Of a DNA stretch of 64,000 nucleotides, positions 31,576 through 35,754 are shown piece by piece. Numbering within the stretch: the first letter of the stretch is position 1; each line of letters starts with the position of its first letter. The notes below the pieces were generated by a model. That model did not search any database and was not told the DNA's origin. It saw only the letters and a list, made by a program, of their open reading frames with translations. A program made the position numbers and the translations under genes. The DNA lies in contig JBHLOC010000020.1 of assembly GCA_048940925.1 (NCBI GenBank), positions 21,777-85,776 on the forward strand, read 5' to 3'. The stretch comes from Promethearchaeota archaeon (GTDB taxonomy: Archaea > Asgardarchaeota > Lokiarchaeia > Sigyniarchaeales > SOKP01).

Positions 31576-32412
31576 ATGAGTAAAAAAATACGGCTTTATA
31601 CTGATATTCTTATTGATGGTTTGAAATTCCCCGAAAGTCCACGCTGGCATAATGATAAATTGTGGTTTTCTGATATGGATCAACATAAGGTTATGACCAC
31701 TGATATGAATGGAAATCTGGAAGTTGTGGTGGAAACACCTCATAGAGTCTCAGGTTTAGGGTTTCTTCCTGATGACAAGCTTTTAATAGTATCAATGGAA
31801 GATAATCGATTACTAAAATTGGATCCTGAGGGTCTTACGGAAGTAGCTGATATGAATAGCTTTAATCCAATTTTATCAAATGATATGGTCGTTGATAGAT
31901 TAGGAAGAGCATACGTAGGAAATTTTGGATTTGATTATTTCAATAATGCGACATTTCTTCCAACATTTGTATTACTAGTACTCCCAGATGGAACCATTAA
32001 AAAAGTAGCGGATGATATGGCCTGTCCAAATGGCGCGGTAATAACTCCAGATAATAAAACATTAATTATAGCAGAAACCTTTTCTACGCGAATAAGTGCT
32101 TTTGACATTCAAAAAAATGGATCACTTTCAAATCGTAGAATTTGGGCCGATTTTAAATCCGTAGCTCCCGATGGAATTTGTCTTGATAATCAAGGAGGTA
32201 TATGGGCTGCAGCTCCTGGACGTCATAGAGTTGTCAGAGTATTGAAAGGTGGAGAAATTACTCATATCGTAAAAGTTGAACATGATGCATATGCGTGCAT
32301 GCTAGGAGGACCAAATTTAACAACACTTTTTGTAGCAACGTCAGCTTATTCACGAGATAAAGGACGTATTGAAATTGTAGAAGTAGAATACCTTAAAGCG
32401 GGAATACCTTAA
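31576..32412 (+). CDS. SMP-30/gluconolactonase family
   Basis: FPESPRWH, NDMVVD, PNG, PDGICLD. Confidence 0.88.
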   Translation: MSKKIRLYTDILIDGLKFPESPRWHNDKLWFSDMDQHKVMTTDMNGNLEVVVETPHRVSGLGFLPDDKLLIVSMEDNRLLKLDPEGLTEVADMNSFNPILSNDMVVDRLGRAYVGNFGFDYFNNATFLPTFVLLVLPDGTIKKVADDMACPNGAVITPDNKTLIIAETFSTRISAFDIQKNGSLSNRRIWADFKSVAPDGICLDNQGGIWAAAPGRHRVVRVLKGGEITHIVKVEHDAYACMLGGPNLTTLFVATSAYSRDKGRIEIVEVEYLKAGIP

Positions 32413-32587: not shown

Positions 32588-34295
32588 ATGTTTGATAAAG
32601 ACTATTTAGAGAAAATAAAATCAGAAAAAGAAAAATGGAAAGAAATATATTCCAGATCAAGAGAAAGAGATGTAAAATTTGTCACAGACTCTGAAATCCC
32701 TGTCAAACCAATCTTTACTCCTTTAGATATAAAAGATAAAGACTATTTAGGTGATATTAATTTTCCTGGAGTACCCCCTTACACAAGGGGTGTTTATCCA
32801 AGCATGTATAGAGGGAGACTTTGGACTATGAGGTTATTCTCGGGACATGGAAAAAGTATTTCAATTTAGAAATACTTCTGTATCGCCCGAGGAAACTAAT
32901 AAAAGGTGGAAATTACTATATGAAAATGGAGAAACAGGATTTAGTGCTGCTGTAGATGCATTAACATTTAATGGAATTGATCCAACTAATCCCGACGGAG
33001 CCCCAGAAGTTGGAACTTCGGGTGTGCCTTTGTATTGCATTGATAGTCTATTTGCCCTTACAGAAGATATTCCAATAGACAAAGTAAGTGTGGCTTTAGT
33101 TGTTGAACCATTTACAACTGCACCTGTATGTTCAATGTATTTTAATATGGCAAAAATTCGCGGATATGACATCAGTAAATTAATTGGAACAACCCAAAAC
33201 GATATTTTAACTATGACCGTAGGATTTATTCCCTATAAGAACTGTCCACCTAATCATTTACTTAGATTAGCTTGTGATTTTATAGAATGGACCGTAGCAC
33301 AAAAAAATGTTCCCCTATGGCATCCAATAAATTTCACAGGATACAATTATAGAGAAGGTGGCATTGATGCAGTACAAGAATTAGGTTTTGTCTTTGCAAG
33401 CGCATGTTCGCATATCGATAATTTACTTCAGAGAGGTTGGAATATTGATGACTTTGTTGGTCGACTTGCTTTTCACCTAGCTGCACACAAAGACTTTTTT
33501 GAGGAAATTGCTAAGTTTAGAGCTGCTAGGAGAATATGGTATAAATTAATGAAGGACAAATATGAATCAAAGGATCCAAAAAACCAAGGTTTTCGATTTC
33601 ATGTGCAAACTGCAGGATCTTCTTTAACAGCACAATCTCCTAAGATAAATATTGTAAGAACAGCAATTCAAGCATTAGAAGCTAATTTGGGTGGATGTCA
33701 ATCCTTACATACTAATTCTTATGATGAAGCTATTTGTTTACCGTCAGAAGAAGCAGCATTATTAGCTTTAAGGACTCAACAAGTAATATCAGATGAAACA
33801 AGGATCCACAATACAATAGATCCTTTAGCAGGATCATACTTCATTGAATGGCTAACTGATGAAATAGAAGAAAGAGTATGGAAATATATTGATAAAATTC
33901 AACAAGTTGGCACAATTGATAAAGCGCTTTCTTCAGGATTTTTATATAAGGAAATGAGAGATGCTTTTCAAAAAAGAAGAAAGCGTATTGAAAATGGGGA
34001 TGAAATTATGCTTGGTGTGAATAAATATCCTGTCGCTTATGATACTGTTACTGATGTATTTAGAACAAATAAAGAAGCAATAGAAATAGAAGTTCGACGA
34101 ATTGAAAAACTAAAAGAACGAAGAGATAACGCAAAATTAGAAAGAATTTTAGATACAATGCGAAATATTTGCGAAAAGGAAGAAAATGTTATGCCTATCG
34201 TAATGGAAGCAACCAAAGAAGGAGCCACTGTTGGCGAAGTATGTGATATATATAGAGAAATTTGGGGTACTTGGGATCCTCCATTAGCTATCTAA
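32588..34295 (+). CDS. B12-dependent acyl-CoA mutase large subunit, two exons (32588-32852 + 32884-34295), 558 aa after splicing
   Basis: FPGVPPYTRGVYPSMYRGRLWTMRLFSGHG|TPEETN...GTTQNDIL...GYNYREGG...FEEIAKFRAARRIW...FHVQTAG...SLHTNSYDEA. The two track ORFs join in frame after removing 31 nt. Confidence 0.85.
32853..32883 (+). other. Candidate bulge-helix-bulge (tRNA-type) intron in mRNA, 31 nt
   Basis: Intron stem AAGUAUUUC/GAAAUACUU, 3-nt bulge AAA, 4-bp helix AUGG/CUGU, 3-nt bulge AUC, exon stem C/G plus UUCUCGGG/CCCGAGGA. Confidence 0.8.
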
Positions 34296-34312
34296 TCACA
34301 GAGGTGTTAATT

Positions 34313-34711
34313 GTGAGTGAGAATAAGATAAGAGTTCTGATGTCTAAACCGGGTATTGATGGACATTGGCGAGGAGGCATAGTAGTGTCAAGAGCTATAA
34401 GAGATGCAGGTATGGAACTCATTTTTGGAGGATTTCAAAATGTCCAGCAAATTGTAGAGTCTGCTATACAAGAAGATGTTGATGTTATAGGATTAAGTAT
34501 TCACTCTGGAGCTCATTTTGCCTATACCCAACAAATTATCGACTTATTGAAGGAACGCGGAGTACTTGATAATATTATGATACTTGTGGGGGGAGTAATA
34601 CCTGCAAAAGACTTTTCTAAATTAAAAGAGATGGGTGTTGCCAATGTGTATGGACCAGGGAGTATAACTTCAGATATTGTTGAATTTATTCAAACACACG
34701 TAAAAAAATAA
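34313..34711 (+). CDS. Acyl-CoA mutase cobalamin-binding small subunit
   Basis: KPGIDGHWRG, QEDVDVIGLSIHSGAH, GGVIP. GTG 34313 follows GAGGTG. Confidence 0.9.
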   Translation: MSENKIRVLMSKPGIDGHWRGGIVVSRAIRDAGMELIFGGFQNVQQIVESAIQEDVDVIGLSIHSGAHFAYTQQIIDLLKERGVLDNIMILVGGVIPAKDFSKLKEMGVANVYGPGSITSDIVEFIQTHVKK

Positions 34712-34779: not shown

Positions 34780-35754
34780 TTGAAAATTGGACAAGATATT
34801 GACATTTTGATTAACAACTTCAAAAAAAAGGATAAAATTGCCTTAGCAAAATTAATTACTATCATTGAAAATGAACCTGAAAGAGCACATGAAATCTTTA
34901 AGCATTTTGAAAATATAAAGCATGATTCTTATATTGTGGGAATCACAGGTTCACCAGGTGTCGGAAAGAGTACTCTAACTGGAGTGATATGTAAAAAATT
35001 ACTAGCAGATGGAAAATCAATTGGCATAATTTGTGTCGATCCTACATCACCTTTTAGTGGGGGCGCATTTTTAGGAGATAGGGTTCGGATGACGGATATT
35101 TCACTTCACCCCAAAGTATTCATGCGTAGCCTTGCTTCAAGAGGATATAAAGGAGGAATTTCGAGAGCTGTTTTTGATATAAGTTTATTGTATGAAGCTT
35201 ATGGCATGGATATTATAATTATTGAAACTGTTGGGGTAGGCCAAGCTGAATTTGACATCTATAACCTTGCATATACAGTTGTAGTCGTCTTAGTGCCTGG
35301 GTATGGTGATGCAATTCAAATGCAAAAAGCGGGAATAATAGAAATTGGAGACATTTATGATATTAACAAAAAAGATTTAGGAGGAGAAGACGTCGCAGCT
35401 CACGTAGACTTGATGTTGGATGATTCTACCTTTCAAAGTGGATGGAGACCACCAGTATTAATGACTGATGCAATTTCAGGCGAGGGGATTGAGGAATTAG
35501 TTCAAAATATATGGGAACATAAAGAACATCTTGAACTTTCAGAATTAATAAATGAGAAAAAGAAAAATAGATTCTCATATAAGATAAAAGAATTAATTTA
35601 TTCAAAAATTGAAAAATTAATTTCAGAGAATTTCATTAATGAATCTGAAATTAATGAAATTGTGAAGCATGCTGTTGATGATGGAAAATTTAAAATCTAT
35701 CAGACAATTCATAACAAATTTGAAGATGTGAATTTCGAAATTAAAAAAAAATAA
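34780..35754 (+). CDS. meaB: Mutase-associated GTPase chaperone MeaB/ArgK
   Basis: GITGSPGVGKST, VDPTSPFSGGAFLGDRVRM, ETVGVGQ. Confidence 0.92.
   Translation: MKIGQDIDILINNFKKKDKIALAKLITIIENEPERAHEIFKHFENIKHDSYIVGITGSPGVGKSTLTGVICKKLLADGKSIGIICVDPTSPFSGGAFLGDRVRMTDISLHPKVFMRSLASRGYKGGISRAVFDISLLYEAYGMDIIIIETVGVGQAEFDIYNLAYTVVVVLVPGYGDAIQMQKAGIIEIGDIYDINKKDLGGEDVAAHVDLMLDDSTFQSGWRPPVLMTDAISGEGIEELVQNIWEHKEHLELSELINEKKKNRFSYKIKELIYSKIEKLISENFINESEINEIVKHAVDDGKFKIYQTIHNKFEDVNFEIKKK

What the first reader, a model, noticed from the sequence alone, without database searches (positions are those of the whole stretch)
32838..32893. Candidate bulge-helix-bulge intron inside a protein-coding gene (B12 acyl-CoA mutase)
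Seen: the mutase is split into ORFs 32588-32869 and 32847-34295 at the motif WTMRxxxGxG-(T/S)xEETN. The intervening RNA folds as follows. Exon stem: UUCUCGGG/CCCGAGGA plus C32846-G32885. Central 4-bp helix: AUGG(32847-50)/CUGU(32878-81), i.e. A-U, U.G, G.U, G-C. Two 3-nt bulges: AAA(32851-53) and AUC(32882-84). Intron stem: perfect 9 bp, AAGUAUUUC/GAAAUACUU, with a 6-nt loop that carries the premature UAG. Established: archaeal EndA cuts each bulge after its second nt and RtcB ligates. Applying that rule removes exactly 32853-32883 (31 nt), giving GGA-ACG-CCC-GAG = FSGHGTPEETN and a 558-aa protein. The structure, the frame and the protein motif agree independently. Archaeal mRNA BHB introns are known mainly from crenarchaeal cbf5; I know of none in a metabolic mutase of an Asgard-like archaeon. 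Inference: splicing could act as an on/off switch, loosely analogous to non-spliceosomal, frame-changing XBP1/HAC1 splicing.
Basis: partly seen in the sequence, partly recalled or inferred. Interest (0 to 1): 0.95.

Follow-up and report, generated by a model that had tools for sequence, protein, structure and literature searches.

The report
tRNA-type mini-intron in Asgard mutase gene
A 31-base insert shaped exactly like a tRNA intron splits the B12-dependent acyl-CoA mutase gene of a Loki-type Asgard archaeon; comparison with relatives indicates that the mRNA is cut and rejoined by the tRNA-splicing enzymes, which papers document inside only one archaeal coding gene (cbf5), although no spliced RNA could be examined here.

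Summary
The mutase large-subunit gene is broken at 32853-32883 by a 31-nt insert that folds as a canonical hBHBh' motif (z -5.8). Cutting by the BHB rule gives ...LFSGHG-T-PEETNKRW..., which is what 557/558-aa intron-less orthologues (about 91% identical) read.

- **Not an artefact or pseudogene.** The insert occurs in more than 20 independent contigs and 9 genomes. Every complete allele is intact after splicing, and dN/dS is 0.03-0.07.
- **Structure is conserved, sequence is not.** A second 30-nt intron with an unrelated stem sits at the same site. A third, 32-nt relaxed BHB lies 8 nt downstream in another genus. In the fitted alignment 99% of cells pair.
- **Exon codons differ.** Intron-bearing alleles use rare GC-rich synonymous codons that build the outer helix.
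- **The machinery is present.** The genome encodes two EndA paralogues and RtcB.
- **Patchy distribution.** About 9 of 135 family genomes carry an intron. The carriers are not one clade, and they share an identical flank of about 60 nt, which suggests spread by recombination.

My scan found three more 30-nt BHB introns in this genome, and earlier notes of this scan list others here and in other archaea. No RNA evidence was obtainable, and the "on/off switch" idea is unsupported.

The parts
32588..32852 (+). Exon 1 of the acyl-CoA mutase large subunit (88 codons plus the first base of the split Thr codon)
   Evidence: ORF. Pfam MM_CoA_mutase profile 2-56. dN/dS 0-0.29 between intron-bearing alleles.
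32853..32883 (+). 31-nt BHB intron (type A). It carries the stop UAG at 32867-69 that ends the unspliced frame.
   Evidence: The same insert is present in relatives. 558-aa orthologues lack it.
32884..34295 (+). Exon 2 of the mutase (last two bases of the Thr codon through the stop codon)
   Evidence: Pfam profile 57-512. Full-length ORF after splicing. dN/dS 0.04-0.05.
32837..32846 (+). 5' arm of the outer exon-exon helix (32837-44, A32845 unpaired, C32846)
   Evidence: Fold. One G-C to A-U compensatory change in L012. GC-rich synonymous codons occur only in intron-bearing alleles.
32847..32850 (+). Central 4-bp helix, 5' strand (AUGG, from the His-Gly codons)
   Evidence: Pairs with 32878-81. 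Three of the four pairs vary on one side and stay paired.
32851..32853 (+). Bulge 1 (AAA). Predicted 5' cut after 32852.
   Evidence: The first two bases are invariant (exon). The third varies A/G/U among alleles.
32854..32877 (+). Intron hairpin: 9-bp stem (32854-62 with 32869-77) and 6-nt loop (32863-68)
   Evidence: Seven of nine pairs differ on both sides between type A and type B, and 100% of cells pair.
32878..32881 (+). Central helix, 3' strand (CUGU)
32882..32884 (+). Bulge 2 (AUC). Predicted 3' cut after 32883.
   Evidence: The first two bases vary (AU/AC/AA). The third, C, is exon and invariant.
32885..32893 (+). 3' arm of the outer exon-exon helix
32806..32897 (+). Tract that is identical among type A alleles from different clades of the gene tree. 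It covers about 48 nt of exon 1, the intron and about 13 nt of exon 2, and looks like a co-conversion tract.
   Evidence: 100% identity in the tract against about 80% background, but only 80-86% to each allele's intron-less sister. AU test.
34262..34711 (+). B12-binding small subunit of the mutase (operon partner)
   Evidence: Pfam B12-binding.
34780..35754 (+). MeaB-type G-protein chaperone (operon partner)
   Evidence: Pfam MeaB, E 8e-76.

Best explanation
The 31 nt at 32853-32883 are a bulge-helix-bulge (tRNA-type) intron inside the coding sequence of the acyl-CoA mutase large subunit.

**Proposed mechanism**
1. In the pre-mRNA, the codons for F-S-G and P-E-E pair to form the outer helix.
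2. The His-Gly codons pair with the 3' end of the intron to form the 4-bp central helix.
3. The intron core forms a 9-bp hairpin.
4. The host splicing endonuclease (two EndA paralogues, probably an (alpha-beta)2 enzyme) cuts after the second base of each 3-nt bulge.
5. RtcB joins the exons, creating a hybrid ACG (Thr) codon. The result is a 558-aa mutase reading ...GHG-T-PEETN....
6. The intron is presumably released as a 31-nt circle.

**Shown:** structure, conservation and covariation, exact restoration of the orthologous protein, functional constraint on both exons, and presence of the enzymes.

**Inferred:** that cleavage and ligation occur, and that splicing is constitutive.

The intron is a presence/absence polymorphism within one Lokiarchaeia-type family. 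It appears to have moved between alleles by homologous recombination together with about 60 nt of flanking exon.
For: 1. **Canonical hBHBh' geometry.** z -5.8. It is stable in a long context in seven alleles.
2. **Exact junction.** Pfam profile positions 56 and 57 abut across the insert. Intron-less 557/558-aa orthologues about 91% identical read LFSGHGTPEETNKRW, exactly the predicted junction.
3. **Independent assemblies.** The same insert occurs in 6 JGI/Logan contigs, an NCBI MAG, 5 GTDB genomes and 8 metagenome contigs, and in 7 of 135 family genomes by covariance model.
4. **Two intron types at one site.** Type A is 31 nt and type B is 30 nt. Type B has an unrelated stem sequence and in-frame TAA TAA. 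Both fold identically and both splice to GGA-ACG-CCN.
5. **Pair counts.** 99.1% of cells pair and 8 pairs change on both sides. Slid controls give 38-56%.
6. **A third intron.** A 32-nt relaxed BHB lies 8 nt downstream in the same gene of another genus.
7. **Intact alleles under selection.** All complete intron alleles give a full ORF after splicing. dN/dS is 0.03-0.07, the same as for intron-less pairs.
8. **Codon choice.** Intron alleles use TTC-TCG...A|CG-CCC-GAG where 30 intron-less alleles mostly use TTT-TCA...ACT-CCT-GAA. At the TCN/CCN pair, 9 of 30 intron-less alleles mismatch against 0 of 12 intron alleles.
9. **No alternative start.** Type B alleles have no start codon for exon 2 until 54 codons downstream.
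10. **Machinery.** Two EndA paralogues and RtcB. 22 of 34 aragorn tRNAs carry introns.
11. **Other genes in the genome.** Three more genes carry 30-nt inserts of the same architecture that split Pfam domains.
Against: - No RNA evidence.
- The central helix in the window has two G.U pairs, and A32845 is unpaired in the outer helix.
- The pair-count alignment was fitted to the structure by the covariance model. The type A / type B contrast is essentially one evolutionary event, so the covariation counts overstate independence.
- Part of the exon-exon complementarity is inherent to F-S-G / P-E-E codons, and a weaker form also exists in intron-less alleles.
- The genome has at least one other mutase-family match, so loss of this copy might be tolerated.
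Confidence: 0.85

Rival explanations
1. Split gene. The insert is never removed, and the enzyme is assembled from a 93-aa N-terminal peptide and a 482-aa protein started at AUG 32847.
For: In type A alleles, an ATG inside CAT-GGA happens to be in frame with exon 2 through the 31-nt insert. Gene callers therefore report a 482-aa ORF in the window and in relatives.
Against: - Type B (30 nt) alleles have the same gene under the same constraint. The ATG opens only an 8-codon ORF there, and the next in-frame start lies 54 codons downstream, past conserved motifs.
- The 482-aa ORF would begin with 12 intron-derived residues replacing the conserved junction.
- The break lies inside a conserved motif with no loss of profile positions.
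- The hairpin and its flanks are conserved as RNA structure. G.U changes occur that would be A-C mismatches on the other strand.
Confidence: 0.05
2. Inactivated gene. A small selfish or accidental insertion has killed the mutase, and another mutase paralogue tolerates the loss.
For: The unspliced frame stops at 32867-69. The genome has a further mutase-family match. The insert is absent from most relatives.
Against: - dN/dS is 0.03-0.07 for pairs in which both members carry the insert, at dS 0.4-2.0. That equals the values for intron-less pairs.
- No second lesion occurs in any complete allele.
- The B12 subunit and MeaB downstream are intact.
- The insert itself is conserved with pair-preserving changes.
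Confidence: 0.04
3. Regulated switch. The intron is real, but its removal is conditional and controls mutase expression, as in XBP1/HAC1.
For: Only the general analogy. The unspliced mRNA gives a truncated product.
Against: - No sensor or regulatory feature was found.
- Most close relatives express the same operon without any intron.
- Introns of the same architecture sit in unrelated genes, including a translation GTPase. That argues for a general, constitutive process.
Confidence: 0.08
4. Recoding. Ribosomes frameshift or hop over the insert, as in T4 gene 60 bypassing.
For: A stable hairpin lies close to a Gly GGA codon, with a stop inside it.
Against: - There is no matching landing codon in the correct register. 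The only downstream GGA (32891-93) is out of frame.
- Type B is 30 nt with two in-frame stops, so no frameshift can rescue it.
- The third intron lies at another position.
- The geometry is precisely that of a BHB, which bypassing does not need.
Confidence: 0.01
5. Assembly or sequencing artefact.
For: None beyond the fact that the genome is a 90-contig draft with 8% estimated contamination.
Against: Identical or near-identical inserts occur in more than 20 contigs from independent projects and assemblers.
Confidence: 0.01

Closest known systems
BHB intron in the cbf5 (pseudouridine synthase) pre-mRNA of Crenarchaeota (Watanabe 2002; Yokobori 2009, PMC2738675)
   Same: A short BHB intron inside an archaeal protein-coding sequence, removed by the tRNA-splicing endonuclease and ligase. 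It is needed to restore the ORF. It has been gained and lost among related lineages.
   Different: - Different gene (a metabolic B12 mutase) and different phylum (Asgard/Promethearchaeota, a mesophilic 30% GC genome).
- Splicing of cbf5 was shown experimentally; here it is inferred.
- Several genes per genome are affected here.
- Three intron forms lie at two positions within 8 nt.
- Carriers share an identical flanking tract despite not forming one clade.
Archaeal pre-tRNA introns with the canonical hBHBh' motif (Marck and Grosjean 2003; reviewed in PMC4090602)
   Same: Identical geometry: two 3-nt bulges, a 4-bp helix and flanking helices, with cuts after the second bulge base. After splicing, the exon hairpin has a 7-nt loop with the junction at the equivalent of position 37/38. 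The host is rich in tRNA introns (Asgard tRNA introns in PMC11291895 and bioRxiv 10.64898/2026.10.13.758758).
   Different: The host RNA is an mRNA, not a tRNA. The outer helix is built from codons, so it is constrained by the protein sequence and tuned through synonymous sites.
BHB element in the 5' UTR of Haloferax volcanii HVO_1309 mRNA (PMC7714728)
   Same: An mRNA substrate of archaeal EndA outside tRNA and rRNA.
   Different: It lies in the untranslated leader, not in the coding sequence, so no reading frame has to be restored.
IRE1/RtcB splicing of XBP1 and HAC1 mRNA in eukaryotes
   Same: Non-spliceosomal, protein-catalysed removal of a short, frame-changing intron from an mRNA, with RtcB-type ligation in metazoa.
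   Different: The endonuclease (IRE1) and the stem-loop recognition motifs are different. That system is a regulated stress response. No regulation is evident here.

Membership tests
Archaeal BHB (EndA/RtcB-spliced) intron | [quoted passage not shown] | tested here: met
   Bulges 32851-53 and 32882-84 around helix 32847-50/32878-81. The same holds in 12 or more alleles and in the type B intron.
Archaeal BHB (EndA/RtcB-spliced) intron | Flanking helices h (exon-exon) and h' (intron) | tested here: met
   8+1 bp outer helix and 9-bp inner helix. 98.9% and 100% of cells pair.
Archaeal BHB (EndA/RtcB-spliced) intron | Cuts at the symmetric bulge positions yield a functional product | tested here: met
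   The junction GGA-ACG-CCC gives the orthologous sequence with no gap. 30-nt and 31-nt introns give the same junction.
Archaeal BHB (EndA/RtcB-spliced) intron | Host encodes the splicing endonuclease and an RNA ligase | tested here: met
   Two tRNA_int_endo hits (102 and 70 bits). RtcB at 556 bits.
Archaeal BHB (EndA/RtcB-spliced) intron | Structure, not sequence, is conserved among homologues | tested here: met
   8 pairs with changes on both sides, and slid controls at 38-56% paired. Caveat: the alignment was fitted to the model, and types A and B represent few events.
Archaeal BHB (EndA/RtcB-spliced) intron | Spliced RNA and excised (circular) intron exist in vivo, or the RNA is cleaved by EndA in vitro | not testable with these tools
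cbf5-intron lineage (homologous intron) | Located in cbf5 at the conserved crenarchaeal site | tested here: not met
   The host gene is MM_CoA_mutase. This is an analogous intron, not a homologous one.
Pseudogene | Relaxed constraint and accumulation of further lesions | tested here: not met
   dN/dS 0.03-0.07. All complete alleles are intact after splicing.
Programmed frameshift / translational bypass | Slippery site, or matched take-off and landing codons in register | tested here: not met
   No in-register landing codon. The 30-nt form with in-frame stops cannot be rescued by a frameshift.
Repetitive mobile element (MITE-like) | Multiple sequence-similar copies in the genome | tested here: not met
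   blastn-short finds only the locus itself, plus chance matches of 20 nt or less. The covariance model hits once per genome.

The most novel reading that the evidence does not exclude
The mutase intron is one member of a dynamic population of stereotyped 30-32-nt BHB mini-introns in the protein-coding genes of Lokiarchaeia-type Asgard archaea.
- These introns colonise codon-built hairpin loops that mimic anticodon loops. In this gene there are three intron forms at two positions within 8 nt.
- They spread between species by recombination that co-converts about 60 nt of flanking exon.
- They then select GC-rich synonymous codons that stabilise the outer helix.

If so, the closest archaeal relatives of eukaryotes routinely splice mRNAs with the tRNA machinery. 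They must then cope with translation of unspliced messages.
Probability: 0.4. Interest if true: 0.85.

Novelty: new member of a known kind. Interest (0 to 1): 0.7.

Why it matters
In the papers searched, protein-catalysed BHB splicing inside an archaeal coding sequence is documented only for cbf5 of Crenarchaeota. PMC7714728 says so explicitly.

This case adds four things:
- a well-supported example in a metabolic gene of an Asgard archaeon;
- evidence that several genes of the same genome are affected;
- an unusually clean natural experiment: intron-bearing and intron-less alleles at about 90% identity, two unrelated introns at one site, a third nearby, and a co-conversion-like tract;
- a way to make intron gain, loss and spread testable.

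It also has a practical side. Gene callers split such genes (93 + 482 aa here) or truncate them. Asgard proteomes and metabolic reconstructions are therefore systematically mis-annotated at these loci.

Tried and rejected
- **RNA evidence.** The diagnostic spliced junction could therefore not be searched in RNA-derived contigs.
- **Plain MAFFT alignment of types A and B.** It misaligned the stems. I used a covariance-model alignment instead, which leans towards the structure.
- **First covariance-model alignment.** It mixed in reverse-strand hits and was discarded.
- **Repeated-element idea.** No other copies were found.
- **Extended conserved helix as the cause of the identical upstream tract.** The pairing partners of that tract differ between alleles.
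- **Relaxed genome-wide BHB scan.** It gave 736 ORF-joining candidates, mostly chance hairpins and gene junctions in this 30% GC genome. Only those with the 4-bp helix / 9-bp stem / 30-31-nt architecture and a recognisable split domain were accepted.
- One Pfam call had wrong coordinates and was corrected.
- **Readings rejected.** Frameshift or bypass, split gene, pseudogene and assembly artefact were considered and rejected (see rivals).

Full report
**1. The observation**

The sequence is as described.
- ORFs 32588-32869 (93 aa) and 32847-34295 (482 aa) overlap by 23 nt in different frames.
- They hit Pfam MM_CoA_mutase at profile positions 2-56 and 57-512. The gene is therefore interrupted without losing a single profile position.
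- Downstream lie a B12-binding small subunit and a MeaB chaperone, so this is an ordinary acyl-CoA mutase operon.
- The RNA 32830-32900 folds at -24.8 kcal/mol. Shuffles give -10.7 +/- 2.4 (z -5.8, none of 200 as good).
- The fold has the 8-bp outer helix, the 9-bp inner helix and the central helix between two 3-nt internal-loop strands.
- The geometry is that of a pre-tRNA. On each strand the order is flanking helix, 4-nt central strand, 3-nt bulge, other helix.
- Cutting after the second bulge base removes 32853-32883 (31 nt) and makes GGA-ACG-CCC.

**2. The junction is the orthologous sequence**

- A protein search with exon 2 found many 557/558-aa orthologues at about 91% identity, labelled Promethearchaeota and other Asgard MAGs. 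It also found two 482-aa forms.
- The full-length proteins read ...LFSGHGTPEETNKRW..., exactly the predicted spliced product.
- The spliced window gene is 558 aa.

**3. The insert is real DNA and recurs**

- The 482-aa forms sit on JGI and Logan contigs (six loci were fetched) and on an NCBI MAG. All have the same 93 + 482 split.
- A degenerate exon pattern with a variable gap found 5 GTDB genomes and 8 metagenome contigs with an insert at this site.
- A covariance model built from the element hits once per genome in 7 of 135 genomes of the family, in three genera.
- Two further carriers appeared in the protein scan. Most relatives are intron-less.

**4. Structure is conserved, sequence is not**

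- There are two intron types at the same site.
  - Type A is 31 nt with a 6-nt loop.
  - Type B is 30 nt with a 5-nt loop and a completely different 9-bp stem. It has two in-frame TAA codons, so it does not shift the frame at all.
  - Both fold as hBHBh' and both splice to GGA-ACG-CCN.
- Within type A, the few variable positions keep pairs: A-U to G.U, G-C to G.U, and U.G to U-A.
- One type B allele has a G-C to A-U double change in the exon helix, through synonymous TCA/CCT.
- On a model-guided alignment of 10 distinct sequences, 99.1% of cells pair and 8 pairs change on both sides. Slid controls pair 38-56%.
- Caveats: the alignment is fitted to the structure, and types A and B represent few events.
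- In a genome of another genus the gene is uninterrupted at this site. It carries a 32-nt insert 8 nt downstream, between the two Glu codons. That insert has a perfect 4-bp central helix, an AAA bulge and a 10-bp stem, but a weak outer helix. Its removal again restores P-E-E-T-N.

**5. The gene is functional in carriers**

- Every complete intron-bearing allele gives an uninterrupted full-length ORF after splicing.
- dN/dS between carriers is 0.03-0.07 at dS 0.4-2.0, the same as between intron-less alleles. Both exons are constrained.
- This rules out a pseudogene.
- The split-gene reading fails on type B. The ATG inside CAT-GGA opens only 8 codons there, and the next in-frame start is 54 codons downstream.
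- Frameshifting or bypassing cannot serve a 30-nt insert with in-frame stops.

**6. Exon codons are tuned to the intron**

- Thirty intron-less alleles mostly use TTT-TCA-GGN-CAY-GGN-ACT-CCT-GAA.
- All carriers use TTC-TCG(A)-GGA/T-CAT-GGA-A|CG-CCC(T)-GAG (one has GAA).
- These are GC-rich codons in a 29.6% GC genome.
- The changes turn U-A and A-U pairs of an intrinsic F-S-G / P-E-E codon complementarity into C-G and G-C. They also add the C-G pair next to bulge 2.
- At the TCN/CCN pair, 9 of 30 intron-less alleles mismatch against none of the carriers.

**7. Distribution and spread**

- On a tree of the exons (site region removed), type A carriers fall in at least four places, each next to intron-less alleles.
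- Holding the carriers together costs 511 log-likelihood units (AU p 2e-11).
- Type A carriers from different clades are nevertheless 100% identical over about 48 nt upstream and about 13 nt downstream of the splice site, and 28-31 of 31 in the intron. Background identity is about 80%.
- The same tract is only 80-86% identical to each carrier's intron-less sister, against about 90% elsewhere.
- The upstream tract has no conserved pairing partner.
- The simplest reading is that the intron with a short exon flank moved between alleles by homologous recombination.
- Ancestral presence with many precise losses, plus unusual constraint on the tract, is not excluded.

**8. Machinery and genomic context**

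- The genome is 4.8 Mb in 90 contigs. It encodes two EndA-family proteins and RtcB.
- aragorn finds introns in 22 of 34 tRNAs.
- A 2026 preprint reports two EndA paralogues, consistent with (alpha-beta)2, in 44 of 60 Asgard genomes. It describes heavy tRNA intron loads but does not mention mRNA introns.
- My own scan for BHB motifs whose removal joins two long ORFs recovered the mutase and three further 30-nt introns of the same architecture (4-bp helix, 3-nt bulges, 9-bp stem, 5-nt loop):
  - in an AIRS/PurM-like gene;
  - in an EF-2/EF-G-family GTPase;
  - in an AMP/thymidine-phosphorylase-family gene.
- For two of the three, each half matches the expected part of a Pfam family. For the AIRS-like gene only exon 2 gave a match.
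- Earlier notes of this scan list still others in this genome (aIF2-gamma, an E1-like enzyme, an FeS protein and others) and in other archaea. One was reported with an RNA-derived contig lacking the intron. I did not re-test those.

**9. What is known**

In the library searched, BHB introns inside archaeal coding sequences are documented only for crenarchaeal cbf5. A 5'-UTR element is known in Haloferax. Nothing was found on Asgard mRNA introns.

**10. Verdict**

- Splicing itself was not observed because RNA data could not be reached.
- The regulatory-switch idea is unsupported.
- In kind, this is a new member of the cbf5-type class.
- Its value lies in the host lineage, in the number of affected genes, and in the clear signs of intron turnover at this locus.

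Noticed in passing
G000 contig C30:66095-66124 (+); L053:1596-1625: A 30-nt canonical hBHBh' insert (bulges AAA/AUC, 9-bp stem, MFE -24.9) interrupts an AIR-synthase-related (PurM/HypE-like) gene. Exon 2 starts at AIRS profile position 43.
   Followed up: partly
G000 contig C32:27895-27924 (-); L055: A 30-nt BHB insert splits an EF-2/EF-G-family GTPase between ...MTDSD and DEEQERGITI. The halves match GTP_EFTU profile 3-35 and 49-187.
   Followed up: partly
G000 contig C64:13177-13206 (-); L056: A 30-nt BHB insert splits an AMP/thymidine-phosphorylase-family gene inside ...DKHS-T-GGVPGNK.... Glycos_trans_3N lies upstream and Glycos_transf_3 downstream.
   Followed up: partly
L067:460-540 (-) (G269:C35, another genus of the family): The orthologous mutase is intron-less at the GHG|TP site. 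It has a different 32-nt relaxed BHB insert 8 nt downstream, between the two Glu codons. This is a third intron form in the same motif.
   Followed up: partly
window 32837-32893 compared with L023-L052: Even intron-less alleles can form a weaker hairpin from the F-S-G and P-E-E codons (mostly U-A/A-U pairs). The intron therefore sits in the loop of a pre-existing codon hairpin, which may be a preferred landing site.
   Followed up: partly
whole genome G000: aragorn finds only 34 tRNAs, 22 of them with introns. The low number suggests that many tRNA genes are too interrupted to be recognised.
   Followed up: no
L003-L008 about 1839-2553 (upstream of the mutase in relatives): A HEPN / nucleotidyltransferase (MNT-type) gene pair lies upstream of the mutase in several relatives. 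In the window a different gene (31576-32412) occupies that place.
   Followed up: no
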